Positions 29,092 to 49,164 of a stretch of DNA of 64,000 nucleotides are shown piece after piece. Every line of letters begins with the position of its first letter. Position 1 is the first letter of the stretch. The notes beneath the pieces are model-generated. The model made no database searches. It worked only from the letters and a program-made list of their open reading frames with translations, and was not told where the DNA came from. This stretch comes from an uncultured Clostridia bacterium. Lineage in GTDB: Bacteria > Bacillota > Clostridia > TANB77 > CAG-465. The position numbers and the translations under genes were made by a program. The stretch lies in assembly GCA_947627255.1 (NCBI GenBank), contig CANQVI010000002.1, positions 47-64,046 of the forward strand, given 5' to 3'.

Positions 29092-29952
29092 ATGAAAAAA
29101 GTTCTATTAATCGGTCAAGATGGAATGCTTGGTGGAGAGCTTTATAATAGATTAAATTTATATAAAGATGAATATGAAGTATATGGAACAACATTACAAA
29201 CATTAGATATTTGTGATGAAAATGCAGTATTAAATAAAGTTGAAGAAATAAAACCATACTACATTATTAATTGTGCTGCTTATACTAATGTGGATGCTTG
29301 TGAGACTAATTATAGCTTAGCAGAAGCAGTAAATGGTATAGCAGTTGGTAATATTGCAAGAAGTGCTAAAAAAGTTGGTGCAACATTTATTCAAATAAGT
29401 ACAGACTATGTTTTTGATGGAAATCTAGACGTAGATAAGGCTTATACAGAAGATATGAAGCCAAATCCTGTAAGTAGTTATGGAAAAACAAAATTAATGG
29501 GAGAAGAAAATGCAAAACTTGCAGAAAAATATTACATTTTAAGAACAGCTTGGCTATATGGTCAAGGTAAAAACTTTGCAAGAACTATGATTGCTGCTTC
29601 ACAAAAAAGAGATGAAGTTACAGTTGTATGCGACCAACATGGAAGCCCAACTTCTACAACAACTCTTTGTGAAATAATCGAACAAATTATGAAAAAAGAA
29701 CCAAACTATGGAATATATCACTCAACTAATGAGGGATTTACTACATGGTATGATTTTACAAAAACAATATATGAAATAAAAGGAATTACTACTACTGTAA
29801 AACCAATTACATCAGAAGAATATGCTAAAATGAACCCACAATCTAGTAAAAGACCTTTTAATTCAAAATTATCTAAAGAAAAACTACATAGTGTTGGAAT
29901 ATATCCATCAGATTATGTAGACGCATTAAAAGAATATTTAAAGGGGGAATAA
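29092..29952 (+). CDS. rmlD: dTDP-4-dehydrorhamnose reductase
   Basis: LLIGQDGMLG, INCAAYTNVDACE, STDYVFDG, YGKTK. Context with rmlA/C/B. Confidence 0.92.
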   Translation: MKKVLLIGQDGMLGGELYNRLNLYKDEYEVYGTTLQTLDICDENAVLNKVEEIKPYYIINCAAYTNVDACETNYSLAEAVNGIAVGNIARSAKKVGATFIQISTDYVFDGNLDVDKAYTEDMKPNPVSSYGKTKLMGEENAKLAEKYYILRTAWLYGQGKNFARTMIAASQKRDEVTVVCDQHGSPTSTTTLCEIIEQIMKKEPNYGIYHSTNEGFTTWYDFTKTIYEIKGITTTVKPITSEEYAKMNPQSSKRPFNSKLSKEKLHSVGIYPSDYVDALKEYLKGE

Positions 29953-29955
29953 ATA

Positions 29956-30897
29956 ATGAAAGGAATTATTTTAGCAGGGGGTAGTGGAACAAGACTATAT
30001 CCAATAACTATAGCAGTATCTAAGCAATTATTACCAGTTTATGATAAGCCAATGATATATTATCCATTATCTACATTAATGTTAGCGGGTATTAAAGAGG
30101 TATTAATTATATCTACACCTGTACATTTACCAATGTTTGAATCTTTACTTGGAGATGGAAGTAGTCTAGGAATGAAGATCGAATATAAGGTACAAGAAAA
30201 ACCAGTTGGACTTGCTGATGCATTTAGAATTGGTGAAGATTTTATAGGAGATGATAGTGTTTGCTTAATTTTAGGAGATAACATGATATATGGACCAGGA
30301 GTTGAAAAAATCTTAAAACAAGCAAGTAAATTAAAAGAAGGAGGAATTATCTTTGGATATAAAGTAGCCGATCCTACTTCTTATGGTGTTGTTGAAATTG
30401 ATAATAAAGGAAATGCTATATCTATAGAGGAAAAACCTAATTTTCCTAAATCTAATTTAGCAGTACCAGGATTATATTTTTATGATAATTCTGTAATAGA
30501 AATAGCTAAAAATATACAACCATCTGCAAGAGGAGAACTAGAAATTACAGATGTAAATAGAGTATATATGGAAAGAGGAAAACTTAAAGTTATACCTTTA
30601 GGAAATGGATTTGCATGGTTTGATACAGGAACTGCTGATAGATTAAATGATGCGTCAGACTTTGTAAAAGCAATAGAGATAAGACAAGGAATACAAATAG
30701 GATGTATTGAAGAAATTGCATATAAAAATAATTGGATTACAGATAATCAATTAATTAGTCTTGCAGAAAAACATGGAAAAACAGACTATGGAAGATACAT
30801 GTATAAATTATTAGAACATGACTATGACTATTACGAGGATGTTTTAGATTCTGTAGATTATATTCAAAATGAAGGACCAAGAGAAATAGGAAAATAG
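29956..30897 (+). CDS. rmlA: Glucose-1-phosphate thymidylyltransferase
   Basis: [18 protein letters not shown]...[32 protein letters not shown]. Confidence 0.96.
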
Positions 30898-30928
30898 AAT
30901 ATAGATAGCAAGGAAGGAGCTATTTAAA

Positions 30929-31510
30929 ATGGGAAAATTTAAAAAAATTGAAACATCTATAGATGGTGTATATATAATAGAACCTACTGTTTTTGGAGAT
31001 GATAGAGGATATTTTATGGAAACTTATAGTGAAGCCGAATTTGCTGAAATTGGTATAACTAATAAGTTTGTACAAGATAATCAATCAAAGTCTAAAAAAG
31101 GTGTGTTAAGAGGACTACATTTTCAAAAACAAAATTCACAAGCAAAGCTTGTTAGAGTTTTAAAAGGTGAAGTTTATGACGTAGCTGTAGACTTAAGACC
31201 AGGAAGTCCTACATATGGAAAATATGAAGGTGTGCTTCTAACTGAGGAAAATAAAAAGATGTTTATGATTCCTCGAGGATTTGCACATGGATTTTTAGTT
31301 GTATCTGATGAAGCTGAATTTGCATATAAATGTGACGATATATATAATCACGAAGCTGAAGGTGGACTTAGATGGGATGATCCAGATGTAAATATTAAAT
31401 GGCCAATGGAAAATATCAGTAAAGACGAACTTTTAACTTCAGAAAAAGATGGTAAATGGCCTTCTTTAAAAGAATTAAGACAAACTGATTTATTTAAAGA
31501 TTTAAAATAG
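30929..31510 (+). CDS. rmlC: dTDP-4-dehydrorhamnose 3,5-epimerase
   Basis: FGDDRGYFMETY, QDNQSKS, GVLRGLHFQ, KLVRVLKGEVYDVAVDLR, RGFAHGF. Confidence 0.95.
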   Translation: MGKFKKIETSIDGVYIIEPTVFGDDRGYFMETYSEAEFAEIGITNKFVQDNQSKSKKGVLRGLHFQKQNSQAKLVRVLKGEVYDVAVDLRPGSPTYGKYEGVLLTEENKKMFMIPRGFAHGFLVVSDEAEFAYKCDDIYNHEAEGGLRWDDPDVNIKWPMENISKDELLTSEKDGKWPSLKELRQTDLFKDLK

Positions 31511-31521
31511 GAGGAAATGAA

Positions 31522-32493
31522 ATGAAAAATATTTTAATAACAGGTGGAGCTGGTTTTATAGGTTCTAACTTTGTTAACTTAATGGTAAAAAAATATGGTG
31601 ACGAATATACATATGTTGTATATGATAAATTAACATATGCAGCAAATATGAAAAATTTAGAGCCTAGTGAAGGAAAATATATATTTGTAAAGGGAGATAT
31701 TTGTGATTTAGATCAAAATATTGAAACTCTAAAAAAATATAATATTGATGCAGTAGTACATTTTGCAGCTGAATCACATGTAGATAATAGTATAAAAAGA
31801 CCATTAACATTTACAGAGACTAATGTATTAGGTACACATGCACTACTTGAAGCTTGTAAACAAGTATGGGGAGAAGGCTCAAATAATAAATTTGTACATG
31901 TTTCTACTGATGAAGTCTACGGCTCTTTAGGAGATGAAGGATATTTTACAGAAAAATCTCCTATTAAACCTAATAGCCCATATAGTGCTTCTAAAGCAGC
32001 TTCTGATTTAATAGCATTTGCTTATGCAGAAACATTTAAAATGAATGTATCTGTAACAAACTGTTCAAATAATTATGGACCAAATCAACATCATGAAAAA
32101 TTAATACCTCATATGATTTCTATGGCTATGCAAGATAAAGAGCTACCTGTATATGGAGAAGGATTAAATATTCGTGATTGGTTATATGTTGACGATCATT
32201 GTGAAGCAATAGATATAATTTTACATAAAGGTAGAAAAGGCGAAAGATATAATATTGGTGGACATAATGAAAAGAGAAACATTGAAATTGTTAAATTAAT
32301 ACTTGAAAGATTAGGAAAACCAGAAAGCCTAATTAAACATGTAGAAGATAGAAAAGGTCATGATTTTAGATATGCTATTGATCCTACTAAGTTAAGAGAA
32401 GAATTTGGTTGGGAACCACATACTATGTTTAAAGATGGAATAGTAAAAACTATTGATTGGTATATAGCACATCCAGAATACTTAGAAAAATAA
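31522..32493 (+). CDS. rmlB: dTDP-glucose 4,6-dehydratase
   Basis: ITGGAGFIGSNF, HFAAESHVDNS, STDEVYG, YSASKAASD, NCSNNYGP. Confidence 0.95.
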   Translation: MKNILITGGAGFIGSNFVNLMVKKYGDEYTYVVYDKLTYAANMKNLEPSEGKYIFVKGDICDLDQNIETLKKYNIDAVVHFAAESHVDNSIKRPLTFTETNVLGTHALLEACKQVWGEGSNNKFVHVSTDEVYGSLGDEGYFTEKSPIKPNSPYSASKAASDLIAFAYAETFKMNVSVTNCSNNYGPNQHHEKLIPHMISMAMQDKELPVYGEGLNIRDWLYVDDHCEAIDIILHKGRKGERYNIGGHNEKRNIEIVKLILERLGKPESLIKHVEDRKGHDFRYAIDPTKLREEFGWEPHTMFKDGIVKTIDWYIAHPEYLEK

Positions 32494-32497
32494 TAAA

Positions 32498-32536
32498 AAA
32501 GCACACCATATTTTTTATGGCGTGCTCTTTTATTTT
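32498..32536 (+). terminator. Rho-independent terminator after rmlB
   Basis: GCACACCATA-ttttt-TATGGCGTGC followed by TCTTTTATTTT. Confidence 0.75.
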
Positions 32537-32573: not shown

Positions 32574-32602
32574 TTGAAATTTGTTATTATTAATGATATA
32601 AT
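32574..32602 (+). promoter_or_regulatory. Sigma-A promoter for the exporter/glycosyltransferase genes
   Basis: TTGAAA (32574-32579), 17 nt, TATAAT (32597-32602) with an upstream TG (TGaTATAAT). Confidence 0.55.
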
Positions 32603-32629: not shown

Positions 32630-33424
32630 ATGGGATTTATAAAAGAAATTATAAAAAATAGAAAAATGATTTTTAGACTTGGAAAAAGTGATTTTAAAAA
32701 CAGATTTGCTGGTACAAGCTTAGGTGCCTTATGGGGATTTATATCACCATTTGTATTTATGTCTATGTATGTAATTGTCTTTCAATACATTCTTAAGACA
32801 AAAAGTGCAGGAAATCATCCTTTTATAGTATGGTATCTTCCTGGCATGTGTATGTGGACATTTTTAAATGATTCTATCATAACAGCAAGTAATTCAATAA
32901 GAAGCTATTCTTATCTTGTAAAAAAAGTTATATTCCCAGTTGATATAATACCTGTTATTTCTCTTTCATCATCAAGTATAATAGGAGCCTTTTTATTTTT
33001 AATAGCTATTATTGTAGATATGTGTTTTGGATATATGGCTAATTTTTTACAAGTCATATACATGGTAGTAGCGGCAATAATATTTATTATATCAATTACA
33101 AGGCTTACATCTGCACTTGCAACATTAATACCAGATATAGTTCAACTTATTAGTGTTTGTATGCAACTTTTCTTTTGGCTTACACCTGTAATTTGGAACT
33201 TATCTATGTTAGAAGCTCATCCTGGAATACTAAATGCAGCTAAATGTTTACCATTTACTTATTTAATATCTGGATTTAGGGATGCTTTTATAACAGATTC
33301 TAATATAGTTACAGAAGCAAATTGTATGTATACAATTGTATTTTGGGTTGTAACACTATTAATATTCATGTGGGGAAATGCAGTATTTAAAAAATCTAAA
33401 AAAGATTTTGCTGACGTATTATAA
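32630..33424 (+). CDS. ABC-2 type polysaccharide/teichoic-acid export permease (Wzm/TagG/RgpC-like)
   Basis: 264 aa, six TM segments. N-terminal FKNRFAGTSLGALWGFISP signature of ABC-2 glycan exporters. Located with the ATPase two genes away. Confidence 0.85.
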   Translation: MGFIKEIIKNRKMIFRLGKSDFKNRFAGTSLGALWGFISPFVFMSMYVIVFQYILKTKSAGNHPFIVWYLPGMCMWTFLNDSIITASNSIRSYSYLVKKVIFPVDIIPVISLSSSSIIGAFLFLIAIIVDMCFGYMANFLQVIYMVVAAIIFIISITRLTSALATLIPDIVQLISVCMQLFFWLTPVIWNLSMLEAHPGILNAAKCLPFTYLISGFRDAFITDSNIVTEANCMYTIVFWVVTLLIFMWGNAVFKKSKKDFADVL

Positions 33425-33437
33425 GATGGAGGAAAAT

Positions 33438-34415
33438 ATGCAGGAAAAAAAGGTTGATATATTATTAGCTACATATAATGGAGAAAAATATTTAAAAGAG
33501 CAACTTGATTCAATTTTAAATCAAACATATGGTAATTTTAAATTAATTATATCAGATGATTGCTCTAAAGATTCTACTCGTGAGATACTTAGAGAATATG
33601 AAAAAAAGGATGATAGAATTGAACTTCATTTTCAAGAAAAGAATTTGGGCTCAAATAAAAATTTCGAATATTTATTATCCAAAGTTACAGCTGAATATTA
33701 TATGTTCTCTGATCAAGATGATGTTTGGTTACCAAATAAAGTAGAAATTTGTATGAATAAAATACAAGAAGAAGATTCAGATTTAGTTTTTACAGATTTG
33801 GAAGTAGTAGACCAAGATTTAAATACAATAAATAAATCATTTAATAAAAAAATGAAAGTTTATAGAAAAGCTAAAAAATATAAAGATTTTAGAATGGAAT
33901 ATTTATATAACTGTGTTACTGGATGTACTATACTTGCCAAAACTAGTATGATTAAAGAATATTTACCTTTGCCTGAAAATAAGGATATATTACATGATTA
34001 TTGGATAGCTCTTGTAACTTCATTAAAAGGAAGAATAAGTTATGTTGATGTAGCTACTATAAAATATAGACAACATGGTTCAAATCAAGTTGGAACAAAA
34101 AGATATACAGAAAAATTTAATGAATTTAATCAAAAAAGAGATTACATTATAGATTTAAAAATAAATAAATTTAAAACCTATTTGAAAAGGTCAGAAATCT
34201 TTTCGGACAAGCTAAATAAGTTAAATAGTGAAGCATTAGAGTATTTTGAAAGAGTTAAAAATTGTAATAATATAAATTTTAAAGGTTGGAAAACATATCA
34301 CGATATATTTAAATATGATTCTATAGGATATTATATATTTTATTTCATTTTTTATAATATACCTTGCATATTTAGATTTGGATATAATATATGGAAATTT
34401 ATAAAAAACAAATAA
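33438..34415 (+). CDS. GT2 glycosyltransferase, RgpB/GacC-like (probable rhamnosyltransferase)
   Basis: VDILLATYNGEKYLKEQLDSILNQTY, ISDDCSKDST, FSDQDDVWLPNK. The ATG at 33438 follows GGAGG. The upstream extension in the ORF track overlaps the permease. Confidence 0.7.
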   Translation: MQEKKVDILLATYNGEKYLKEQLDSILNQTYGNFKLIISDDCSKDSTREILREYEKKDDRIELHFQEKNLGSNKNFEYLLSKVTAEYYMFSDQDDVWLPNKVEICMNKIQEEDSDLVFTDLEVVDQDLNTINKSFNKKMKVYRKAKKYKDFRMEYLYNCVTGCTILAKTSMIKEYLPLPENKDILHDYWIALVTSLKGRISYVDVATIKYRQHGSNQVGTKRYTEKFNEFNQKRDYIIDLKINKFKTYLKRSEIFSDKLNKLNSEALEYFERVKNCNNINFKGWKTYHDIFKYDSIGYYIFYFIFYNIPCIFRFGYNIWKFIKNK

Positions 34416-34429: not shown

Positions 34430-35758
34430 ATGAATGATGAAAATGTTATTGTTGTTGAGAATTTAGTTAAAGAGTATAAAATGTTTAACAGCAAAAAAGA
34501 TAGATTACTTGAAAGTATGGTACCAGGGTATCAAAAACATGATGTGTTTAGGGCAATGAATGATGTTAGCTTTACTGTAAAAAAAGGTGAAGTTCTTGGC
34601 GTACTTGGAAAAAATGGTGCTGGTAAATCTACACTTTTAAAGATGATTACAGGCGTTGTTACACCAACAAGTGGTAAATTAGAAGTTAAGGGTAAAATCA
34701 GTTCTTTACTTGAACTTGGTGCTGCATTTAATGCAGAACTTACAGGCTATGAAAATATATATCAACATGGTCAAATAATGGGCCTTACAAAAGCAGAAAT
34801 AAAGGCAAAAGAAAAAGAAATAATAGAATTTGCAGATATAGGCGAACATATTAGCCAACCTGTAAAGACATACTCTTCAGGTATGTTTGCAAGACTGGCT
34901 TTTGCTTGTGCTATAAATGTTGATCCAGATATTTTAATTGTTGATGAAGTATTGTCTGTAGGTGATATGGCATTTCAATTAAAATGTTTTAAAAAATTTG
35001 AGGAATTTAAAAAGAGAGGAAAAACTATATTATTTGTTACTCATAGCATAACAGATATTTTAAGAAATTGTACTAGAACTATAATAATAGATTCTGGAAA
35101 TAAAATATTTGATGGTGGAGTAAAAGATGGTGTTGAACTATATAAGAAAATAATAGTAGGACTAAAACCAGGTGATTTGAAAAAACAAACAGCTCTTGAA
35201 AAAGAAACAGAAAAAATTGAAGATGATGTAGAACTAAAAGATGAACAATTTAAAATTATAGATGATCCTGAAAATGAAACTTGGAAAGAGCATTTAATTC
35301 AAAACGATAAAGTAATAGATTATGGTAATGGTAAAGCTGAAGTTTTTGATTATGGTATTTTTAATGAAAAGGGAGAATATATGTCTTCAATAGAAAATGA
35401 TAAAGAGGTATATTTAAAATCTAGAATAAGATTTAATGAAGATGTTTTAGATCCTATTTTTACCATGACAATTAAAGACTTTAAAGGACTTGAAATGTGT
35501 GGTACAAATACATTAATTGAAAATGTATTAACAGGAAGTTTTAAAAAAGGTGATGTAGTCGAAGTTACATTTAAGCAAATGATAAAACTTGGACCTGGTA
35601 AATATACATTATCATTTAGTTGTACACATATTAGTGGTAATGGTGAACTTGAAGTTTTAAATAGAAAATATGATGCATTACTTGTAGAGGTAATTTCAAA
35701 TAAAGAATGTGTTGGATTTATAAGACTAGATTCTGAAATAACATTTGAAAAAAAATAG
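34430..35758 (+). CDS. ABC exporter ATP-binding protein (Wzt/TagH/RgpD-like) with a ~190-aa C-terminal extension
   Basis: Walker A GKNGAGKST, signature YSSGMFARLAFA, Walker B ILIVDEVLSVGD. The extension starts around aa 250, is beta-rich and resembles the Wzt C-terminal glycan-binding domain. Confidence 0.85.
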   Translation: MNDENVIVVENLVKEYKMFNSKKDRLLESMVPGYQKHDVFRAMNDVSFTVKKGEVLGVLGKNGAGKSTLLKMITGVVTPTSGKLEVKGKISSLLELGAAFNAELTGYENIYQHGQIMGLTKAEIKAKEKEIIEFADIGEHISQPVKTYSSGMFARLAFACAINVDPDILIVDEVLSVGDMAFQLKCFKKFEEFKKRGKTILFVTHSITDILRNCTRTIIIDSGNKIFDGGVKDGVELYKKIIVGLKPGDLKKQTALEKETEKIEDDVELKDEQFKIIDDPENETWKEHLIQNDKVIDYGNGKAEVFDYGIFNEKGEYMSSIENDKEVYLKSRIRFNEDVLDPIFTMTIKDFKGLEMCGTNTLIENVLTGSFKKGDVVEVTFKQMIKLGPGKYTLSFSCTHISGNGELEVLNRKYDALLVEVISNKECVGFIRLDSEITFEKK

Positions 35759-35817
35759 TGATAGAAGTGGCTTTTTTAGTGTATTTTTTGTGAAAAATAA
35801 TAAATTTTGTATTTAGC

Positions 35818-35850
35818 TATGTTATAATGTATGAGAAACATTATAGCATA
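35818..35850 (+). promoter_or_regulatory. 13-bp inverted repeat overlapping a TATAAT box in the gap between the ATPase gene and the methyltransferase gene
   Basis: TATGTTATAATGT-atgagaa-ACATTATAGCATA with one mismatch. It lies 32 nt upstream of the ATG at 35882. Confidence 0.45.
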
Positions 35851-35881
35851 ACTTTTATTACAATAAAGGGGAGTTGTTTAT

Positions 35882-37714
35882 ATGGATGTTTTGTATGAGC
35901 TATATGATAAGGATATACAATATGACAATTTATATGGAACTCAAGATGAAAAAGAAATAATAGATTTCATAAATACTCATAAAGATAAGGAAAAATTTAA
36001 AGAAGACGTATCTAAAATGTGTAATTCGTCTTTTCAAAATGAATTGTCAATTCGACATATTAATATGATAAATTGGTATCCTTTAGTACAAGGGAAAAAA
36101 GTATTAGAAGTACTTGGAAGATTTGGTGCTATAACTGAGTGGCTATTGAGTAAAGATATGGAAGTTACATGTATTGAAACTGTAAAGGAAAGAGCAGAAG
36201 CAAACAATGCAAGAAATAACTGCAAAAATCTACAGATTATATGTACTTCGGCTTTAATGGATATTGAGCTTAATGAAAAATATGATTATATTATATTACC
36301 TAATGTTATAGAGAATATAAAATCTTTTATGAATGTTAAGGATATATCACCTAAGTCTGCTGTAAAACTTCTTATAACTAAAATTTCTAAATATCTAAAT
36401 GACGATGGTAAAATATTAATATATACAGATAATAAATTTGCTATTAGAAATTTTGCTGGATATAAATCATCTAGTGAGGAAGTATCATATTCAAATATTA
36501 CAGGAAGTAATAAGGGAAGCAATAATAGATATTTTTCTAAAAAGGAATTGTGTGATATATTCTCAGAGTTAGGAATTAATGATTATAAGTTTTATTATTT
36601 ATTACCAGATTGTAAAAATACATCTGTAATATATTCAGATGATTATTTGCCAAGTATTAGCTCATCTAAACTAAAATATAATATTTGTTATAATAAATTT
36701 AATACAATTATTTTTAATGAAACAGATGCTATTTTGCAAGTTACAAATAGTGGCTATTTTGATATATTTGCTAATTCATATATGATTGAAATAGCAAAGG
36801 AAAAATGTGATATTAATTTTGTTAGTTTTAATAATTTTAGAGAAAATAAGTACCAACTTATTACAACTATGAAAAAAGAGGAAATTGTAAAAATACCAGT
36901 AAATGAAAATGAACAATTTCAAATAGCAAATATTAAGAAGAATATTGATTTATTAAAAGAATTGAAAATTAATACTGTTGATACATACGATGATGAATGT
37001 ATTAAGAGTAAATATACCAATGCTAGAACTTTGGACAAAATAATTGCTGACAAATTACTAAACGAAGGAGAAAAAGAATTTGTTAATGAAATAAAGAAAT
37101 GGTATGAGTATGTAGATAAAAAGCTAATTAAAGTTGATAACAATGAAAATTTACTTGAAAATAGCATATTTAAAAAATATAATATTGAAATTGAAGATGA
37201 AGTAATCCAAAAATTTAATTTTGTAAAAACAGGATTAATTGATATTATCTTTGAAAATGTTTTTGTTATAAATGATGAATATTATGTCTATGATCAAGAG
37301 TGGTATGAAGAAAACGTACCATTAGAATATATACTTTATAGAGCAATTCAAAGTCTATATTTTCATAATAAAAAAATACATAATGAATTTGATAAAGAAG
37401 AATTATTTAAACTATTTGGCATAGACGAATATATAAAATTATTTGACTTATTAGAACAAAATTGGCAAAATGCTATAATTGATAGAGATGTTTTAAGCTA
37501 TTTTGAAAGTACATATGAAGCTACAACAACTCTTGAAGAATTAAAAAATACTTGCAATGATGCAGATTTTTATCGCAGAATAATGAATGAACAAGCAAGT
37601 CAAATAAAAACACTTACTGAAGAAAATAACAATCTTAAAGTACAATTAAGAGATTTACAAGAAAATGTATTTCAAAAAATGCATAGAAAAATTTTTAGGA
37701 GAAAAGATGATTAA
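35882..37714 (+). CDS. Methyltransferase + kinase-like + C-terminal coiled-coil protein (WbdD-like architecture; putative glycan chain terminator)
   Basis: Class I SAM-MT motifs: KKVLEVLGRFGAI, VTCIE, YDYIILPNVIENI, DDGKILIY. A D-x4-N loop DIIFEN (aa 454-459) plus D471 (YVYDQEW), with kinase-fold spacing. C-terminal heptad-like RRIMNEQASQIKTLTEENNNLKVQLRDLQENVFQKM. Confidence 0.6.
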   Translation: MDVLYELYDKDIQYDNLYGTQDEKEIIDFINTHKDKEKFKEDVSKMCNSSFQNELSIRHINMINWYPLVQGKKVLEVLGRFGAITEWLLSKDMEVTCIETVKERAEANNARNNCKNLQIICTSALMDIELNEKYDYIILPNVIENIKSFMNVKDISPKSAVKLLITKISKYLNDDGKILIYTDNKFAIRNFAGYKSSSEEVSYSNITGSNKGSNNRYFSKKELCDIFSELGINDYKFYYLLPDCKNTSVIYSDDYLPSISSSKLKYNICYNKFNTIIFNETDAILQVTNSGYFDIFANSYMIEIAKEKCDINFVSFNNFRENKYQLITTMKKEEIVKIPVNENEQFQIANIKKNIDLLKELKINTVDTYDDECIKSKYTNARTLDKIIADKLLNEGEKEFVNEIKKWYEYVDKKLIKVDNNENLLENSIFKKYNIEIEDEVIQKFNFVKTGLIDIIFENVFVINDEYYVYDQEWYEENVPLEYILYRAIQSLYFHNKKIHNEFDKEELFKLFGIDEYIKLFDLLEQNWQNAIIDRDVLSYFESTYEATTTLEELKNTCNDADFYRRIMNEQASQIKTLTEENNNLKVQLRDLQENVFQKMHRKIFRRKDD

Positions 37715-39458
37715 TTTGGAAAAAGAAAAATTAAAAAGATTATATTATTTTAAAAGAAATAATTATTATATTAATAAAAATTATAAAAAATGGATACAAA
37801 AAAACGAGCCTAATGGGGATGAATTAGAAAAGCAAAGAGAAGAAAAATTTGCTAATTCTCCATTAATTAGTGTAGTTATTCCTATGTATAATACTGATGT
37901 GGAATATTTTAAGATATTAATTGACTCATTAACTGCACAAACTTATAGTAATATAGAGATTTGTATAGCAGATGGTTCACCTTATGAAAATCCACAAATA
38001 TTAGATATTATTAATAATGATAATAGAATTATATATAAGCATTTAGAAGAAAATGGTGGAATATCTTTTAACACAAATGAGGCAATAAAAATGGCAAAGG
38101 GTGAATATATAGCATTTGTAGATCATGATGATGTATTACCTCTATTTGCTTTTTATGAAGTAGTTAATGCGATTAACCAAAATCCAAATGTTGAATTTAT
38201 ATATTCAGATGAGGATATAATTATTGGAAATAAAAGATGTAATCCAAGCTTTAAACCAGATTTTTCTATTGATACATTAAGAAGTTATAATTATATTTCT
38301 CATTTATCTGTTGTAAAAAAAGAGCTACTAAATAGAATAGGTGGTCTTGATAGTGAATTTGATGGAGCGCAAGATTATGAGCTTATATTTAGAATTATAG
38401 AAAATACTTCTAATATAGTTCATATTTCAAAAATATTATATCATTGGAGGTTTCATAGAAATTCTACTTCTGCAAATTCTAATTCTAAGACTTATGCATT
38501 TGAGTCTGGAAGAAGGGCTATACAGAAACATTTAGAAAGATTAAATATACCAGCAACTGTTACTAGCGAAAAAGAAGTAGGAAGATATAGAGTTAAATAT
38601 AATATAATATCAGAAGATAAAGTAAGCATATTAATACCTAATAAAGATAATGTAGAAGATTTGAAAAAATGTATAAACTCAATTTTAAAATCTACATATA
38701 GTAACTATGAAATAATTGTAATTGAAAATAATAGCACTTCAAAAGAGATTTTTGATTACTATGATGAAATAAATAAAATAGAAAATATTAAGGTAGTAAA
38801 GTTAGAGATTAATGAATTTAATTATTCTAAAATAAATAATTATGGCGTAAAATTTGCTGAAGGAAAATACTTATTATTTTTAAATAATGATACAGAAGTG
38901 ATTGAAAGCGGATGGATTGAAGAAATGTTAGGCTTGGCTCAAAGAGAAGATGTTGGAATAGTTGGAGCTAAATTATTATATCCAGATAATACTGTTCAAC
39001 ATGCAGGAGTTATTATTGGCATGGGCGGAGTAGCAGGACATATTAATAAAGATATTTCATGTGATGACCCTGGTTATTTTTCTAGAGCATCAGTAATTAA
39101 TAATTATTCTGCTGTAACGGCGGCATGTCTTATGACTAAAAAAGAAATTTTTGAAAAAATAAATGGATTTGACGAAAATTTAAAAGTTGCTTTTAATGAT
39201 GTAGATTTATGTTTGAAAATAAGAAGTTTAGGATATTTATGTGTATTTACACCATATGCTAAACTATATCATTTTGAATCTAAAACAAGAGGATATGAAG
39301 ATACTAAAGAAAAAAAAGCAAGATTTGCTGGAGAAATAGAGCTATTTAAAAAGAAATGGAAAGATGTTTTAGATAGTGGTGATCCATGTTTTAATAAAAA
39401 TTTAAGTTTAAATTCTGCTAAATTTATTATAGATAAAAAGGGTAGAATTAATCATTAA
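37707..39458 (+). CDS. Bi-domain GT2 glycosyltransferase (two GT-A modules in one chain)
   Basis: Module 1: ISVVIPMYNTDVEYFKILIDSLTAQTY...FVDHDD. Module 2: VSILIPNKDNVEDLKKCINSILKSTY...FLNNDTEV...GAKLLYP. The ATG at 37707 follows AGGAG and overlaps the previous stop (ATGATTAA). Confidence 0.8.
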   Translation: MINLEKEKLKRLYYFKRNNYYINKNYKKWIQKNEPNGDELEKQREEKFANSPLISVVIPMYNTDVEYFKILIDSLTAQTYSNIEICIADGSPYENPQILDIINNDNRIIYKHLEENGGISFNTNEAIKMAKGEYIAFVDHDDVLPLFAFYEVVNAINQNPNVEFIYSDEDIIIGNKRCNPSFKPDFSIDTLRSYNYISHLSVVKKELLNRIGGLDSEFDGAQDYELIFRIIENTSNIVHISKILYHWRFHRNSTSANSNSKTYAFESGRRAIQKHLERLNIPATVTSEKEVGRYRVKYNIISEDKVSILIPNKDNVEDLKKCINSILKSTYSNYEIIVIENNSTSKEIFDYYDEINKIENIKVVKLEINEFNYSKINNYGVKFAEGKYLLFLNNDTEVIESGWIEEMLGLAQREDVGIVGAKLLYPDNTVQHAGVIIGMGGVAGHINKDISCDDPGYFSRASVINNYSAVTAACLMTKKEIFEKINGFDENLKVAFNDVDLCLKIRSLGYLCVFTPYAKLYHFESKTRGYEDTKEKKARFAGEIELFKKKWKDVLDSGDPCFNKNLSLNSAKFIIDKKGRINH

Positions 39459-39477: not shown

Positions 39478-41448
39478 ATGAAAAACGATGTTGAAAATAA
39501 ATTAATTACTGTAATCGTTCCATGTTACAATGTAGAAAAATATATTGAAAAATCGATAGATTCAATTATGTCACAGTCATATAAAAATATAGAAACTATA
39601 TTAATTGATGATTGTTCTACTGATGGAACTTATGATAAGATAGTAAAATTAAAAGAAAAGTATAATGATAAAATAATAGTTATAAAAAATGAGAAAAATA
39701 GTGGAGCAGCATATTCTAGAAATCAGGCTTTAAAAATTGCTAAAGGTGATTACATAGGATTTGTTGATCCAGATGATTATATTGATGAAGATTATTATTT
39801 AAAACTATATGAGAGTATACAAAATAATAATGCTTGGATTGCAATTACAGATATATTTTTAGTTGAAGAAAACGGAAATCCAATACTTGGACCAATCAAA
39901 TGCTATGAAGGTGATAAGTTAAATATAGAATCTGTACTTAATTGTGGTCTAAGTGCATCTCCATGTAACAAGTTGATAAGAGCAGATATAATTAAAAATT
40001 ATCCGTTTTTAGAAGGAAAAATGAATGAGGATGTTGCCTCTATAATTCCTACTCTTGTTATGTGTAAAGATAATTTATCTTATGCACATGATATAAAATA
40101 CTATTATGTGCAAAGAAAAAACTCAATGCAAAATTCAGAATTTTCTGAAAAAAGATTTGATATGTTTGAGGCTTTAAACGTTTGTTTAGAAAGAATAAAG
40201 AACGAAAAAAACTATAAAAAATATTTAGATATTGTTTTATATCATCAAGTTTTAATGTTGTATACTTGCGTTATAATAGAAATTGATGATGAAGAAAAAA
40301 GAAAAGAAATAATAAGTAAATTTATAAAAATGCAAGAACAATATGAATTATATAAGAATCCATATGCCAAAATATATGTAAGATCACAAAGAAAAGTATT
40401 AAGATTATATTATTATATGATTATTAAATTATTAAGATTTAAATCTGCTAATTTAATTAATAACGTAATAAAATTAAAAGACTCAATATATGAATTTTGC
40501 AGACTTACAAAAAGAGTATATAAAAGAATGATAGGTAAAAATGTTTTAAAATATAATATTGGACTAAAAGATGTTATAAAAGCAGCTAAAAAGCAAAATA
40601 AATTACCAGAAAGTGAAGTAAAGATATCTGTAGTAATTCCTAATTATAACTATGCAAATTTTATGTATCAAAGATTATATAGTATTTTAAGTCAGAAAGT
40701 AAAATTAAAAGAAATTATAATTCTTGACGATTGTTCAAAAGATAATAGTAGAGAAGTTATAGATAAAATTGTAGATAAAATTTCTAATTATATTTCTATA
40801 AAGAAAATATATAATGAACAAAATAGTGGCTCTCCATTTAAACAATGGAAAAAAGGCTTTAAAGAGGCAACAGGAGATTATGTATGGATTGCCGAAGCAG
40901 ATGACTATTGTTCAAATAAAATGCTTACTAAATTAACAGAAAAAATGAAAGAAAATAAGAATATACAGATTGCATATGTAGATACTGCTTTTATTGATAA
41001 ATATGGAAATATTATATTAAAAACTATAAAAAATGAAATAGACATAAGACATACAGGTCATTGGGATAGCTCTTTTGTTGAAAATGGAATGTATGAAATT
41101 GAAAAATATTGTTTCTTAAATTGTATTATAGCAAATGTATCATCATGTTTAATAAAAAGAGATAATTATGATGATGTGTTTGAAAAAATTTCTTCTTACA
41201 GGCAAGCTGGAGACTGGTTATTTTATAATTTAGTTATGAAAAGAGGAGATATTTGCTTTATTGCAGACCCTATAAATTATTATAGAGTTCATGGAAATAA
41301 CGTAACTAGTCTTACAAAAAAACAAAAACATTTTGATGAAATTGTTAGAATTCATGATGAAAATAGAAAAATAGTAGATTTTACACCATGGCATGAAGAA
41401 GAAGTACAAAAGAGATATGAGTTCTTAAAGAAAGTATGGAAATTGTAA
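39478..41448 (+). CDS. Second bi-domain GT2 glycosyltransferase
   Basis: Module 1: ITVIVPCYNVEKYIEKSIDSIMSQSY...IDDCSTDGT...FVDPDD. Module 2: ISVVIPNYNYANFMYQRLYSILSQ...LDDCSKDNS...IAEADD. Confidence 0.8.
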   Translation: MKNDVENKLITVIVPCYNVEKYIEKSIDSIMSQSYKNIETILIDDCSTDGTYDKIVKLKEKYNDKIIVIKNEKNSGAAYSRNQALKIAKGDYIGFVDPDDYIDEDYYLKLYESIQNNNAWIAITDIFLVEENGNPILGPIKCYEGDKLNIESVLNCGLSASPCNKLIRADIIKNYPFLEGKMNEDVASIIPTLVMCKDNLSYAHDIKYYYVQRKNSMQNSEFSEKRFDMFEALNVCLERIKNEKNYKKYLDIVLYHQVLMLYTCVIIEIDDEEKRKEIISKFIKMQEQYELYKNPYAKIYVRSQRKVLRLYYYMIIKLLRFKSANLINNVIKLKDSIYEFCRLTKRVYKRMIGKNVLKYNIGLKDVIKAAKKQNKLPESEVKISVVIPNYNYANFMYQRLYSILSQKVKLKEIIILDDCSKDNSREVIDKIVDKISNYISIKKIYNEQNSGSPFKQWKKGFKEATGDYVWIAEADDYCSNKMLTKLTEKMKENKNIQIAYVDTAFIDKYGNIILKTIKNEIDIRHTGHWDSSFVENGMYEIEKYCFLNCIIANVSSCLIKRDNYDDVFEKISSYRQAGDWLFYNLVMKRGDICFIADPINYYRVHGNNVTSLTKKQKHFDEIVRIHDENRKIVDFTPWHEEEVQKRYEFLKKVWKL

Positions 41449-41481: not shown

Positions 41482-44292
41482 ATGAAAAAATTAAATGTAG
41501 CTTTTAAAGACATTATATTTTTAATTATTAATCTAATATTAATTCTTTTAATAGGGCTATCTATAGTAAATATTTTTATTTTTAAGGATAATTTACCAAT
41601 ATTATTTAATTATAAAATTGTTATTGGATTTATTTTATTATATATAGGTCTAATAGCTGGTAGCATTATTGCTTTTCAAAAACTAGAGAATAAACTTTCA
41701 AAAAAGACTAAAAAAATAGTAAAATTTGTAAGTGCTATTATAGTTTTGGTATTACAAGTAATTATCACTATTTGTATTATTAGAAAAGCTGGATGGGATT
41801 ACAATGAAATTATGTACTCAGCTTTAGACCTATTAAATGGAAATCCACCTAGTATAGAATATTTTTCTAGATATCCAAACAATTCATTTTTGTTACTGGC
41901 AAAAGAATTGCTATTTAGAATATCATACTTATTTAATATAAAAGCGATATTAGTTGTAGATGTTATTTTTAACGTAATAGCTATTGATGTAGCAATAATA
42001 TATATTTATAAAATTTGTAAAAAATTATTAGGAAATAAATTAGCTTATTTATCATTTTTATTTTCAGTTCCAGTGCTTGGATTTACACCATATATTACAG
42101 TACCTTATTCTGATACATTATCTTTAGCTTTTCCTATATTAGTTTTGTATAATTATATTTTATACAAAAAATCTGAAGTAGATAAGGTTAAGTATATAGT
42201 TTTAATGGGAGTATTTTCTACTATTGGACTATTAATAAAACCTACAAATATTATAATATTAATTGCTATTTCAATAATTGAAATAATTAATTTGATTCAA
42301 AAAGCAATAAATAAAAATAAAGAAACTTTTAGAAAAGAAAATATTAAAAGATATTTACGAAATATATGTATTATAGTAATATTACTATTAGTAATTTATA
42401 GTTCATTTAATGCATATAAGAGAATAAGATTTGGTGAAAGCATTACTGGAGAATTAGAAAAGGAAAATGAATTTCCACTTACGCACTTTATGATGATGGG
42501 ACTTAAACCTACTGACGTAGATGGTAAATATTATGGATACTATTTTGAAGAAGATGTAAATGCTACAGCATCACATATAGGCACTTCTGAAAAAGTTAAA
42601 TACAATATATCTGAAATAAAAGCTAGACTTAAAAAAATGGGTGTTAGTGGATATTTAAAATTTTTATATGATAAATATACTGTTAGTTCATGTGATGGAT
42701 CTTTCTTTTATGGAAATGAAGGAACTTTCTTTATTGAGGAGCCATTATTAAATAATAATTTTGCAAAGAATATCCAACAATATATGTATATAGATGGAGA
42801 TAAGTATTATTCTGTTACTATCCAAATTATGCAATCATATTGGATTATGATTTTGATAGGTATATTAATATGTTGTATAAAAAATATATTTAAAAAATGT
42901 GATGAAACTAATTATATATTAAAACTATCAATAATAGGAATTATATTGTTTATTTTACTATTTGAAGGAAGATCTAGATATTTATTTAATTATCTACCTA
43001 TATTCATAATATTATGTATATATGGTATATATGAACTAATTGCTATTATTAAAAATAGTAATTTTAATAAAGAAAAAATAAAAGATATATATTTAAAAAT
43101 AAATAAATTTGAAAATAAAGTAAAAGATAGAATTTTAGATAAAAAGAATATAAAAATAATATTTTTAGCTATTGTTGTATTACTAGCTATTGTAGCAAGA
43201 GTATTAATGATAAAATATGTATCAGGTGACTATGTAAGTTTTTTGGAAAAATGGTTCGAACAAATAAAAGAACAGGGAGGATTTACTGCATTAAAAAATA
43301 ATATAGGTGACTATAATGTACCTTATTTAACAATACTTGCAATATTAACTTATCTTCCTATACCATCATTAATTTCTATAAAATTAGTATCAATTATTTT
43401 TGATTTTGTTTGTGCCTTTTTTGCAGGATTATTAGTATATGATATTTTAGGTAAAAATGAAAATGCAAAGTTTACATCAATTATTACATTTGCTGTAATG
43501 TTGTTTTTACCAACAATATTAATGAATTCAAGCCTATGGGCTCAATGTGATACAATTTACGTATCATTTATATTAATTAGTTTATATTTGATAAGAAAAA
43601 ATAAAGTAGTTTTATCATTTGTATCCTTAGGTTTGGCTTTTGCATTTAAGCTACAATTTATTTTTATTATGCCTTTATATGTTTTACTTTACTTAAAAGA
43701 TAAGAATATAAGTTTATTACACTTTTTAATTATTCCTATAGTGAATTTTATTTTGTGTATGCCAGCTATTATTCAAGGTAGAGGGATAATAGATTGCATG
43801 ACTATATATTTTAGGCAAACAGAAACATACCATATGTTAACATTAAATTACACTAATTTATACAATATTTTTGGAAAATTTTTTGATTATCAATCAGGAG
43901 TTTGTATAATTTTTACAATAATAGTATTAGGAATTGTATCAATTTATCTTTTATATAAAAATGTGGATATAAAAAATAACATTATTCCTATTGCATTATT
44001 GTATTCAATACTCATCGTATTCTTTTTGCCAAAAATGCATGATAGATATGCATTTTTAGCTGAAATACTAGCAGTTATATATGTTATGATATATAAGAAA
44101 TCATATTATTTTCCAATTACACTTTTAACGTGTGCTGTATATGGGTATTATTGTTTCTTAGCACCAAATGTTATAAATGGAGATTATATTTCTTTATTCT
44201 CAATTGTTGAATTTATTGCTATTGCTAAATTTACATGGGATACATTAAAAGATTTAAAAAATAATAATTATAATATAAAATATATAGAATAA
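41482..44292 (+). CDS. 936-aa fusion of two polytopic GT-C-type membrane glycosyltransferase modules
   Basis: The N-half (aa 1 to ~535) is paralogous to the next gene: YPNN, Y(S/T)DTLS, and RSRY near the end. A ~35-aa charged linker follows. The C-half starts VSGDYVSFLEKWFEQIKEQGGFTALKNNIGDYNVPYL and has ~10 more TM segments (PIG-V/Gpi18-like or DUF2029-like pattern). Confidence 0.65.
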   Translation: MKKLNVAFKDIIFLIINLILILLIGLSIVNIFIFKDNLPILFNYKIVIGFILLYIGLIAGSIIAFQKLENKLSKKTKKIVKFVSAIIVLVLQVIITICIIRKAGWDYNEIMYSALDLLNGNPPSIEYFSRYPNNSFLLLAKELLFRISYLFNIKAILVVDVIFNVIAIDVAIIYIYKICKKLLGNKLAYLSFLFSVPVLGFTPYITVPYSDTLSLAFPILVLYNYILYKKSEVDKVKYIVLMGVFSTIGLLIKPTNIIILIAISIIEIINLIQKAINKNKETFRKENIKRYLRNICIIVILLLVIYSSFNAYKRIRFGESITGELEKENEFPLTHFMMMGLKPTDVDGKYYGYYFEEDVNATASHIGTSEKVKYNISEIKARLKKMGVSGYLKFLYDKYTVSSCDGSFFYGNEGTFFIEEPLLNNNFAKNIQQYMYIDGDKYYSVTIQIMQSYWIMILIGILICCIKNIFKKCDETNYILKLSIIGIILFILLFEGRSRYLFNYLPIFIILCIYGIYELIAIIKNSNFNKEKIKDIYLKINKFENKVKDRILDKKNIKIIFLAIVVLLAIVARVLMIKYVSGDYVSFLEKWFEQIKEQGGFTALKNNIGDYNVPYLTILAILTYLPIPSLISIKLVSIIFDFVCAFFAGLLVYDILGKNENAKFTSIITFAVMLFLPTILMNSSLWAQCDTIYVSFILISLYLIRKNKVVLSFVSLGLAFAFKLQFIFIMPLYVLLYLKDKNISLLHFLIIPIVNFILCMPAIIQGRGIIDCMTIYFRQTETYHMLTLNYTNLYNIFGKFFDYQSGVCIIFTIIVLGIVSIYLLYKNVDIKNNIIPIALLYSILIVFFLPKMHDRYAFLAEILAVIYVMIYKKSYYFPITLLTCAVYGYYCFLAPNVINGDYISLFSIVEFIAIAKFTWDTLKDLKNNNYNIKYIE

Positions 44293-44326
44293 TTTAAAAA
44301 TTCATTTATAGGAGTTGACAGTTATT

Positions 44327-45919: not shown

Positions 45920-45971
45920 AAAAATATGATATAAAGAAAAATATGTTATAATATATTAGGGAGGGAGATAG

Positions 45972-46388: not shown

Positions 46389-46414
46389 TATAATAAAAAG
46401 GGGAGAAATTGACG

Positions 46415-48246: not shown

Positions 48247-48257
48247 AGGAGAAAAGA

Positions 48258-49151: not shown

Positions 49152-49164
49152 AGGAGAGAAGAAA

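What the first reader, a model, noticed from the sequence alone, without database searches (positions are those of the whole stretch)
34430..37714. WbdD-like methyltransferase + kinase-like + coiled-coil protein next to an extended Wzt-type ATPase: possible cap-and-ruler chain termination in a Gram-positive rhamnan locus
Seen in sequence: the 610-aa ORF at 35882-37714 has three parts. (a) An N-terminal class I SAM-methyltransferase fold with motifs VLEVLGRFGAI, VTCIE, YDYIILPNVIENI and DDGKILIY. (b) A central region with DIIFEN (D454-x4-N459, nt 37241-37258) and D471 (YVYDQEW, nt 37292-37294). This D-x4-N ... D spacing matches the catalytic loop and metal-binding Asp of the protein-kinase/aminoglycoside-phosphotransferase fold. 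(c) A C-terminal heptad-like helix (aa ~560-600). The ATPase at 34430-35758 has a normal NBD plus a ~190-aa beta-rich extension. Established knowledge: in E. coli O9a, WbdD (methyltransferase + kinase + coiled coil) caps the polymannan with methyl-phosphate. Its coiled coil sets chain length, and the Wzt C-terminal domain binds the cap to license export. Terminal methylation also terminates the Geobacillus stearothermophilus S-layer rhamnan. Inference: this locus may encode an equivalent phospho-methyl capping and export-gating system for a wall polysaccharide. To my knowledge a methyltransferase-kinase-coiled-coil terminator has not been characterised in Firmicutes.
Basis: partly seen in the sequence, partly recalled or inferred. 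Interest (0 to 1): 0.78.

Follow-up and report, generated by a model that had tools for sequence, protein, structure and literature searches.

The report
WbdD-like glycan chain terminator in Clostridia
In the rhamnose-polysaccharide operon of an uncultured gut Clostridium, an unannotated methyltransferase / kinase-fold / coiled-coil protein sits next to an exporter with a cap-reading domain and most likely caps finished sugar chains as WbdD does in E. coli, a control step not yet described for Gram-positive wall polysaccharides.

Summary
ORF 35882-37714 (610 aa) has three parts:
- a class I methyltransferase fold;
- a central domain that matches no Pfam or PDB sequence, but whose AlphaFold model hits only protein-kinase-like small-molecule kinases. 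K337, D454-x4-N459 and D471-Q-E-W are invariant across more than 60 homologues;
- a short C-terminal heptad helix.

The neighbouring ATPase is a true Wzt with a Wzt_C cap-binding domain. It is 35% identical over its full length to E. coli O9 Wzt, and its cap-binding domain is closest to the O9a domain (2R5O).

The family is unannotated and sits in gut Clostridia MAGs. It has about 590 clusters at 50% identity. It lies beside wzm and a Wzt_C-bearing wzt in 69 of 80 species loci. In many genomes it is fused to polymerase-type glycosyltransferases (GT2-GT2, RgpF, WbsX). In the window it overlaps the next GT2-GT2 gene by 8 nt. Many members carry, after the helix, the same S-x-S-W-K/R-x-T-K motif as WbdD.

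Caveats:
- The kinase domain shows no sequence homology to WbdD's.
- This copy's SAM motif I is atypical.
- The coiled coil spans only about 40 residues.
- The cap chemistry is untested.

Verdict: a WbdD-like terminator, a new variant of a known kind.

The parts
29092..32493 (+). rmlD, rmlA, rmlC, rmlB: dTDP-L-rhamnose synthesis. A PgmG-like phosphoglucomutase lies just upstream at 27690-29078.
   Evidence: All four pass the NCBIfam equivalog cut-offs.
32630..33424 (+). wzm, the ABC-2 permease of the glycan exporter. It is the probable first gene of the operon.
   Evidence: Pfam ABC2_membrane 1e-11. A promoter-like site with an extended -10 lies at 32574-32602, and a terminator-like hairpin at 32492-32534 after rmlB.
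33438..34415 (+). Single-domain GT2 glycosyltransferase between wzm and wzt. An adaptor or primer-extending role is inferred.
   Evidence: Pfam Glycos_transf_2 3.8e-31. The start is taken from the called gene on the identical contig L001.
34430..35758 (+). wzt: the ABC ATPase (NBD, residues about 1-250) plus a C-terminal cap-binding domain.
   Evidence: ABC_tran 2.9e-23 and Wzt_C 2.4e-34. 35% identity over the full length to E. coli HS O9 Wzt, E=1e-84. Best PDB match is the Aquifex WzmWzt ATPase at 8e-68.
35318..35728 (+). Wzt_C carbohydrate (cap)-binding domain, residues 297-433.
   Evidence: Pfam PF14524. On its own its best solved match is 2R5O, the E. coli O9a C-Wzt, at 1.6e-9 over the whole domain; the Aquifex domain scores 5e-6.
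35882..37714 (+). The 610-aa methyltransferase / kinase-like / coiled-coil protein, the proposed chain terminator.
   Evidence: A Shine-Dalgarno sequence (AAAGGGGAG) precedes the ATG. The AF2 model has pLDDT 90.7. WbdD structures rank 6-15 in Foldseek, with 480-600 aligned columns. 91 homologues were found, none with a functional name.
36062..36637 (+). Class I SAM-methyltransferase fold, residues about 61-252. Motif I is LEVLGRFG (75-82). E99 closes beta-2 and D135 lies in beta-4.
   Evidence: Motif I deviates from the family consensus at G78 (L here; G in 45 of 63).
36674..37531 (+). Protein-kinase-like domain, residues 265-550. It belongs to no Pfam family.
   Evidence: Every top Foldseek hit of the domain-only model is a protein-kinase-like kinase. 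There is no sequence hit in the PDB. The domain forms 593/236/91 clusters at E up to 1e-3/1e-10/1e-30 among 1.84 billion representatives.
36890..36892 (+). K337, an invariant lysine in the N-lobe strand just before the long helix. It is the inferred ATP-binding lysine.
   Evidence: Invariant in 63 of 63 and 67 of 67 sequences. Strand 334-339 is followed by helix 342-360.
37241..37258 (+). D454-I-I-F-E-N459, the inferred catalytic loop (catalytic base and metal-binding Asn).
   Evidence: D454 and N459 are invariant. WbdD has the same spacing, D351-x4-N356.
37292..37303 (+). D471-Q-E-W, an invariant metal-binding Asp motif. It is the inferred counterpart of DFG in protein kinases and ID(F/W)E in choline kinases.
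   Evidence: All four residues are invariant. N459 to D471 is 12 residues; WbdD's N356 to D369 is 13.
37532..37711 (+). C-terminal helix (residues 551-608) with a heptad register over about 562-602, then a basic tail, HRKIFRRKDD.
   Evidence: AF2 predicts a single helix. Heptad analysis: 23 of 2000 shuffles reach the observed score. Family tails range from 51 to 122 aa.
37707..39458 (+). Two-domain GT2-GT2 glycosyltransferase, the putative polymerase. Its start overlaps the terminator's stop by 8 nt.
   Evidence: Pfam finds two GT2 stretches. AGGAG lies 5 nt before the ATG at 37707. In L064, L033 and L077 the orthologous genes are fused into one ORF.
39478..41448 (+). A second two-domain GT2-GT2 glycosyltransferase.
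   Evidence: Pfam Glycos_transf_2 2.4e-60, two stretches.
41482..47359 (+). Module for extracytoplasmic side-chain addition: two GT-C-type membrane proteins (936 and 534 aa), a GtrA-like protein and a polyprenyl-phosphate-type GT2.
   Evidence: PMT_2 hits. GtrA_DPMS_TM 1e-23 and Glycos_transf_2 3e-36. Their role is inferred from the known three-component systems.

Best explanation
The 610-aa protein is a cytoplasmic chain terminator for a rhamnose-containing polysaccharide made by the ABC-transporter-dependent pathway.

Proposed sequence of events:
2. The terminator is made in step with the first GT2-GT2 polymerase and probably docks to it.
3. Its kinase-like domain phosphorylates the non-reducing terminal sugar. 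The methyltransferase domain may then methylate that phosphate or the sugar.
4. This blocks further extension.
5. The Wzt C-terminal domain recognises the cap and licenses export through Wzm-Wzt.
6. Outside the membrane, GT-C enzymes add side chains.

Shown here: the domain folds, the invariant catalytic residues, the synteny and the gene fusions. Inferred: the substrate, the cap chemistry, and any ruler role for the helix.
For: - Fold. The methyltransferase fold is supported, and the protein-kinase-like fold. Full-length WbdD structures are among the top hits, with 480-600 aligned columns.
- Catalytic residues. K337, D454-x4-N459 and D471QEW are invariant. Their spacing matches WbdD's D351-x4-N356...D369.
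- Exporter. Wzt carries Wzt_C. It is 35% identical to O9 Wzt, and its cap-binding domain is closest to O9a's 2R5O. In the characterised systems, exporters with this domain need a capped substrate (PMC9445017).
- Gene order matches the E. coli O9 cluster.
- Synteny. 69 of 80 species-level loci carry wzt with Wzt_C next to the gene. Of the 11 without, 6 have under 1.4 kb of upstream sequence.
- Fusions. The module is fused to GT2-GT2, GT2+GT1, RgpF or WbsX+RgpF glycosyltransferases in many genomes. In the window it overlaps the next GT2-GT2 gene by 8 nt.
- Shared motif. 28 of 63 members carry I-x-N-S-x-S-W-K-I-T-K-P-L-R after the helix. WbdD has SRSWRMTKG at 592-600, just after its coiled coil, and the motif HMM finds exactly that site (E=2e-5).
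- Paired activities. Of 22 members whose methyltransferase core is truncated, six have a separate methyltransferase gene beside wzt.
- No other candidate terminator is present in the operon.
Against: - The kinase-like domain has no detectable sequence similarity to WbdD's kinase or to any Pfam or PDB kinase.
- The fold assignment rests on a predicted structure with modest TM-scores (0.3-0.44).
- There is no conserved alpha-C glutamate. Position 347 is H in most of the family and Q here.
- This copy's methyltransferase motif I lacks two of the three consensus glycine positions, and its Pfam score is below threshold. Methyl transfer is therefore doubtful for this particular protein.
- The heptad region is only about 40 residues long. 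The window protein also lacks the SWK motif.
- No initiating transferase or LCP ligase is in the window, so the final acceptor is unknown.
- No chemistry exists for any member.
Confidence: 0.66

Rival explanations
1. It is the same kind of terminator, but in this copy the methyltransferase domain is catalytically dead. The cap would then be a bare (or cyclic) phosphate rather than methyl-phosphate, and the methyltransferase fold would serve only as a scaffold.
For: - Motif I reads LEVLGRFG instead of LEIGAGxG, and several other consensus glycines are lost.
- The Pfam methyltransferase score is below the gathering threshold.
- 22 of 85 relatives have lost the SAM-binding half of the methyltransferase entirely but keep every kinase-domain invariant.
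- A phosphate-only (2,3-cyclophosphoryl-rhamnose) cap exists on the C. difficile SLCT-11 S-layer glycan (PMC6254364).
Against: - The methyltransferase fold is predicted with high confidence.
- E99, D135, G176 and N184 are retained.
- G79 and G82 could still form a SAM-binding loop.
Confidence: 0.2
2. It is a decorating enzyme. It would phosphorylate and/or methylate internal or side-chain residues of the polymer, without terminating growth or gating export.
For: Both domains are generic modifying folds. The chemistry is untested.
Against: - Tight linkage to a Wzt_C-bearing wzt. This domain is known only from cap-dependent exporters (PMC9445017).
- Fusion to polymerases.
- The WbdD-type C-terminal helix plus motif.
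- The operon has no other candidate terminator.
Confidence: 0.08
3. It is a small-molecule pathway enzyme: an ethanolamine or choline kinase fused to a phospho-base N-methyltransferase. It would make phosphocholine to decorate the wall polymer.
For: The best structural hits of the kinase domain are LicA choline kinase and ethanolamine kinase. Plasmodium phosphoethanolamine methyltransferases are among the methyltransferase hits.
Against: - No LicC-type cytidylyltransferase or LicD-type transferase is in the window or in the four related loci read in full.
- No Pfam Choline_kinase or APH hit for any of 63 members.
- A coiled-coil tail and fusion to polymerases make no sense for a soluble precursor enzyme.
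Confidence: 0.04
4. It is a non-catalytic scaffold (pseudokinase) that only organises the polymerase-exporter complex.
For: No canonical glycine-rich loop or alpha-C glutamate is recognisable. There is no sequence similarity to any active kinase.
Against: The Lys, Asp-x4-Asn and Asp that do the chemistry in this fold are absolutely invariant across about 590 clusters' worth of divergence. Pseudokinases typically lose them.
Confidence: 0.03

Closest known systems
WbdD of E. coli O9a/O9 (methyltransferase-kinase-coiled-coil terminator; PDB 4AZS, 4AX8, 4UW0)
   Same: - The domain order is the same: methyltransferase, kinase fold, helical tail.
- The gene position is the same: after wzm-wzt and before the polymerase.
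- The partner Wzt has a cap-binding domain closest to O9a's.
- The D-x4-N...D spacing is the same.
- The family shares the S-x-S-W-K/R-x-T-K motif that follows WbdD's coiled coil.
- WbdD is among the top structural hits over both catalytic domains.
   Different: - There is no sequence homology in the kinase domain. Its structural neighbours are APH and choline-kinase types rather than WbdD or Src-type kinases.
- The helix is about 40-60 residues here. In WbdD the C-terminal region spans residues 460-708 (PMC3482155).
- The host is Gram-positive, and the polymer is rhamnose-based, not polymannose.
- The window copy lacks the SWK motif and has an atypical SAM loop.
WbbB of Klebsiella pneumoniae O12 / Raoultella terrigena (polymerase, terminator and coiled-coil ruler in one protein; recalled from my own knowledge, Williams et al. 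2017)
   Same: Many relatives of the window protein are single polypeptides that join the terminator module and helix to polymerase glycosyltransferases.
   Different: WbbB terminates by adding beta-Kdo, not by kinase or methyltransferase chemistry. In the window the two functions are separate, overlapping genes.
WsaE of Geobacillus stearothermophilus NRS 2004/3a (S-layer rhamnan; methyltransferase plus rhamnosyltransferases; recalled from my own knowledge)
   Same: A Gram-positive, ABC-transporter-dependent rhamnan terminated by a modification at the non-reducing end. The methyltransferase is joined to glycosyltransferases.
   Different: No kinase-like domain has been described for it, and the cap is 2-O-methyl-rhamnose. 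I did not compare sequences here.
C. difficile SLCT-11 S-layer glycan locus (PMC6254364)
   Same: A clostridial, rhamnose-rich, Wzm/Wzt(Wzt_C-like)-exported glycan with a phosphate-bearing cap (2,3-cyclophosphoryl-rhamnose). A methyltransferase/glycosyltransferase gene (orf10) lies next to wzt.
   Different: No enzyme has been assigned to the phosphate.
APH / choline-kinase branch of the protein-kinase-like superfamily (LicA 4R77, APH(3'), Mph)
   Same: These are the best structural matches of the central domain. The D-x4-N and D-x-E motif logic is the same.
   Different: There is no Pfam or PDB sequence hit, even with a profile. The genomic context is entirely different.

Membership tests
WbdD (O9a-type bifunctional terminator) | N-terminal class I SAM-dependent methyltransferase domain | tested here: met
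   The family profile hits solved methyltransferases at 2e-9. Methyltransferases are the top Foldseek hits. hhalign aligns motif I through post-II to WbdD residues 54-132 at 40% probability. Caveat: motif I is atypical in this copy.
WbdD (O9a-type bifunctional terminator) | Central kinase domain of the protein-kinase fold with catalytic Asp-x4-Asn and metal-binding Asp | tested here: met
   The domain-only model hits only protein-kinase-like kinases. K337, D454, N459 and D471 are invariant. The spacing matches WbdD's D351, N356 and D369.
WbdD (O9a-type bifunctional terminator) | Sequence homology of the kinase domain to WbdD's kinase domain | tested here: not met
   The family HMM scores -2.4 bits against E. 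coli HS WbdD. hhalign aligns only the methyltransferase region. WbdD is absent from the top 50 hits of the domain-only fold search.
WbdD (O9a-type bifunctional terminator) | Extended C-terminal coiled coil that trimerises and sets chain length | tested here: inconclusive
   There is a single predicted helix over 551-608, with one heptad register across about 40 residues. Family tails range from 51 to 122 aa. The oligomeric state and any ruler function are not testable here.
WbdD (O9a-type bifunctional terminator) | C-terminal region after the coiled coil that mediates membrane and polymerase association (contains SRSWRMTKG in WbdD) | tested here: not met
   The window protein ends ...FQKMHRKIFRRKDD and has no such motif. 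However, 28 of 63 family members carry it, and the motif HMM finds WbdD residues 592-600.
WbdD (O9a-type bifunctional terminator) | Encoded with wzm, a wzt carrying a cap-binding domain, and the polymerase | tested here: met
   Window gene order against the E. coli HS order. 69 of 80 species loci show the linkage.
WbdD (O9a-type bifunctional terminator) | Transfers phosphate, then methyl, to the non-reducing terminal sugar | not testable with these tools
   This needs enzymology or NMR of the polymer.
Wzt with carbohydrate-binding domain (PF14524) | ABC nucleotide-binding domain followed by a Wzt_C beta-sandwich | tested here: met
   ABC_tran 2.9e-23 and Wzt_C 2.4e-34. 35% identity to O9 Wzt over 443 columns. 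2R5O at 1.6e-9.
Wzt with carbohydrate-binding domain (PF14524) | Binds the capped terminus and is required for export | not testable with these tools
   Inferred from the characterised O9a, O12 and Aquifex systems (PMC9445017).
APH / Choline_kinase Pfam families (PF01636, PF01633) | Significant match to the family HMM | tested here: not met
   None of 63 members hits any kinase family, even at E up to 1. The 67-sequence profile finds no kinase in the PDB.

The most novel reading that the evidence does not exclude
The Clostridia module would be an independently assembled counterpart of WbdD, not its orthologue. It would be built on a previously unrecognised branch of the protein-kinase-like superfamily. 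It would make phosphate-based caps on Gram-positive wall or S-layer rhamnans. These could include the unexplained cyclic-phosphate cap of C. difficile SLCT-11, perhaps with help from the metallo-beta-lactamase-fold partner found in 34 related loci. The variable helix (51-122 aa), or direct fusion to the polymerase, would set chain length.
Probability: 0.25. Interest if true: 0.8.

Novelty: new variant of a known kind. Interest (0 to 1): 0.62.

Why it matters
How Gram-positive bacteria stop and measure their ABC-transporter-made wall polysaccharides is an open question. A 2022 review says a cap is only suspected and that no experimental evidence exists for any terminator (PMC9574508). The enzyme behind the phosphate cap of the C. 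difficile S-layer glycan is also unassigned (PMC6254364).

This family gives a concrete, testable candidate. It has invariant catalytic residues to mutate. Its natural variants include forms with an intact, truncated or separate methyltransferase, helices of different lengths, and fusions to polymerases. It is widespread in gut Clostridia.

It also defines a sizeable kinase-fold family that no domain database recognises. And it suggests that cap-and-gate quality control is shared, or was reinvented, across the Gram divide.

Tried and rejected
- Sequence routes to a kinase assignment all failed: Pfam and NCBIfam on the protein, Pfam on all 63 members at E up to 1, the PDB with the single sequence and with two profiles, hhalign and hmmsearch against E. 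coli HS WbdD.
- The phosphocholine-precursor idea was considered because of the LicA and PfPMT structural hits. I rejected it because no LicC or LicD is present and because of the fusions to polymerases.
- I tried to link the family to C. difficile SLCT-11 orf10. Three protein searches and one cluster look-up returned only unnamed or 'hypothetical protein [Clostridia bacterium]' entries. The link is neither shown nor excluded.
- The metallo-beta-lactamase-fold partner gave no informative solved relative.
- The plasmid collection had no match.
- The promoter and terminator scan was uninformative apart from the sites before wzm.
- The distant relatives P0090 and P0091 (cytidylyltransferase fusions in a teichoic-acid-like locus) were judged a different family.

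Full report
**What is there**

The window is AT-rich (about 26% G+C). It comes from an uncultured gut Clostridia genome: identical contigs occur in ENA and Logan assemblies, and all relatives sit in Clostridia or Bacilli MAGs.

After mreBCD and a PBP2 gene, one co-directional block carries the following genes:

| Coordinates | Gene |
|---|---|
| 27690-29078 | PgmG-like mutase |
| 29092-32493 | rmlD, rmlA, rmlC, rmlB (all above NCBIfam equivalog cut-offs) |
| 32630-33424 | wzm |
| 33438-34415 | GT2 |
| 34430-35758 | wzt |
| 35882-37714 | the 610-aa ORF |
| 37707-39458 and 39478-41448 | two double-GT2 proteins |
| 41482-47359 | two GT-C membrane proteins, GtrA and a polyprenyl-phosphate-type GT2 |
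| 47380-50169 | a deacetylase, another GT2 and GalE |

A terminator-like hairpin after rmlB and an extended -10 promoter-like site precede wzm.

**Checking the observation**

- *The ATPase is a real Wzt.* It has ABC_tran plus Wzt_C (E=2.4e-34, residues 297-433). It is 35% identical over its whole length to the O9 Wzt of E. coli HS (E=1e-84). On its own, its C-terminal domain is closest to 2R5O, the O9a cap-binding domain (1.6e-9). The methyl-cap-binding Aquifex domain comes next (5e-6).
- *The methyltransferase fold is real, but this copy is atypical.* The N-terminal third of the 610-aa protein is only a sub-threshold methyltransferase hit by itself. A 63-sequence family profile hits solved class I methyltransferases at 2e-9, and 45 of 63 members hit Methyltransf_23. 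However, this copy's motif I reads LEVLGRFG where the family has LEIGAGxG.
- *The kinase-like domain is visible only by structure.* It is invisible to sequence methods. No member hits any Pfam kinase family. A 67-sequence domain profile finds nothing in the PDB. The profile scores nothing against WbdD.
- *The structure prediction decides it.* The full-length model has pLDDT 90.7. WbdD entries rank 6-15 in Foldseek, with 480-600 aligned columns, which span both catalytic domains. A model of residues 265-550 alone (pLDDT 88.9) returns only protein-kinase-like folds: LicA choline kinase (3e-5), ethanolamine kinase, macrolide and aminoglycoside phosphotransferases, MTR kinase and Rio kinases. The TM-scores are modest (0.3-0.44), so this is a fold-level call.
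- *Conservation backs the fold call.* K337, D454, N459, D471, Q472, E473 and W474 are invariant in 63-67 sequences that are about 35% identical. They lie where the fold expects the ATP lysine, the catalytic loop and the metal-binding Asp. The spacing, D-x4-N-x11-D, compares with WbdD's D351-x4-N356-x12-D369.
- *The C-terminus is a short coiled-coil-like helix.* It is one predicted helix (551-608) with a single heptad register over about 562-602. Only 23 of 2000 shuffles reach that score.

**Evidence from relatives**

The kinase-like domain defines a family of 593, 236 and 91 clusters (50% identity) at E up to 1e-3, 1e-10 and 1e-30. The domain always follows an N-terminal region of roughly 170-290 aa. 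Every named member is a 'hypothetical protein', a generic methyltransferase or a generic glycosyltransferase.

- *Synteny.* Among 80 loci from species-representative genomes, 69 carry a wzt with both the nucleotide-binding domain and Wzt_C near the gene. Six of the 11 exceptions have almost no upstream sequence. Four loci read in full repeat the window's order: (GT2)-wzm-(GT2)-wzt-...-terminator-GT2x2.
- *Fusion to polymerases.* The module is often fused to polymerase-type glycosyltransferases. GT2-GT2 fusions are the commonest (dozens of proteins of 1150-1290 aa). GT2+GT1, RgpF and WbsX+RgpF fusions also occur. In the window, the terminator's stop overlaps the start of the orthologous GT2-GT2 gene by 8 nt, behind an AGGAG.
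- *The tail.* Its length after the kinase domain varies from 51 to 122 aa. In 28 of 63 members it ends in I-x-N-S-x-S-W-K-I-T-K-P-L-R. E. coli WbdD has SRSWRMTKG at 592-600, immediately after its coiled coil, and an HMM of the motif finds precisely that site. The window protein lacks this motif and ends in a basic patch.
- *Variation in the methyltransferase.* 22 of 85 members have lost the SAM-binding half of the methyltransferase but keep all kinase invariants. Six of those have a separate methyltransferase gene beside wzt, which itself carries the SWK motif.

**Mechanism**

The simplest reading is a WbdD-like cap-and-gate system. The kinase-like domain phosphorylates the non-reducing terminal sugar of the growing undecaprenyl-linked rhamnan. 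The methyltransferase may methylate the phosphate or the sugar. The modification stops the GT2 polymerases. The Wzt cap-binding domain recognises it and licenses export.

Domain identity, catalytic conservation, synteny and fusion are shown here. Substrate, cap chemistry, oligomeric state and ruler function are inferred. In this particular copy methyl transfer is the weakest link, so a phosphate-only cap is a serious variant.

**Rivals**

- A decorating enzyme with no role in termination. This is disfavoured by the Wzt_C linkage, the polymerase fusions and the WbdD-type tail.
- A phosphocholine precursor enzyme, suggested by the LicA and PfPMT structural hits. This is disfavoured because no LicC or LicD is present and because of the tail and fusions.
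- A pseudokinase scaffold. This is disfavoured by the invariant catalytic residues.

**Comparison and novelty**

The protein works like WbdD. It meets WbdD's architectural and contextual criteria. It fails the test of sequence homology in the kinase domain, and its structural neighbours are APH and choline-kinase types. I therefore do not file it as a WbdD orthologue. The architecture may be convergent or very deeply diverged.

The fused relatives resemble WbbB-type all-in-one assembly proteins. That comparison rests on my own recall of the literature.

In Gram-positives, terminal methylation by WsaE is known (again from my own recall). A phosphate-bearing cap is documented on the C. difficile SLCT-11 S-layer glycan, whose locus has a methyltransferase/glycosyltransferase gene next to a Wzt_C-type wzt but no assigned kinase (PMC6254364). 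I could not obtain that sequence to test membership.

The 2022 review of Gram-positive rhamnans states that termination is unresolved (PMC9574508). Literature searches found no WbdD-like protein described outside Gram-negatives.

Verdict: a real, well-supported finding, and a new variant of a known kind. It is of solid interest to glycobiologists, and the chemistry still has to be shown.

Noticed in passing
Related loci, e.g. L089:9079-9981 and L006:9071-9985; absent from the window: A metallo-beta-lactamase-fold gene of about 300 aa sits between wzt and the terminator gene in 34 of 85 loci, mostly those with an intact methyltransferase core. Its function is unknown. A phosphodiesterase acting on the cap is conceivable.
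   Followed up: partly
L064:9968-13465, L033:9917-13363, L077:9962-13576; proteins P0237, P0395, P0380, P0383: The methyltransferase/kinase-like/helix module is fused in one polypeptide to GT2-GT2, RgpF, WbsX+RgpF or GT2+GT1 glycosyltransferases. The SWK motif lies at the junction.
   Followed up: yes
L090:7853-8962, L016:6603-7796 and 11 other loci: Separate class I methyltransferase genes beside wzt carry the same C-terminal S-x-S-W-K-I-T-K-P motif as the terminator family and WbdD. So do unannotated ORFs of about 440 aa (e.g. L043:8644-9969). The motif looks like a shared targeting tag.
   Followed up: partly
window 41482-44292: A 936-aa membrane protein has a PMT_2/GT-C hit only in its N-terminal third, followed by a second multi-span half. 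It may be a tandem or fused GT-C. It is followed by a 534-aa GT-C, GtrA and a Dpm1-like GT2, i.e. a three-component side-chain system.
   Followed up: no
window 6127-10413 and 93-1085: A 1428-aa surface protein has a thioester domain and 12 SpaA-type prealbumin-fold repeats. A smaller SpaA-repeat ORF lies at the window's start.
   Followed up: no
window 50433-52430 (+) and 53612-54676 (-): ORFs of 665 aa and 354 aa just downstream of the polysaccharide block have no Pfam match at all.
   Followed up: no
L087:10001-12250 (P0090): Distant relatives (about 22% identity) combine the homologous region with a cytidylyltransferase domain (PF01467) and C2185-like_N. They sit in a teichoic-acid-like locus with Glyphos_transf and RgpF genes.
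   Followed up: partly
window 32492-32534 and 32574-32602: A 19-bp-stem terminator-like hairpin follows rmlB, and a TG-extended -10 promoter-like site precedes wzm. The export, termination and polymerase genes may therefore form their own transcription unit.
   Followed up: no
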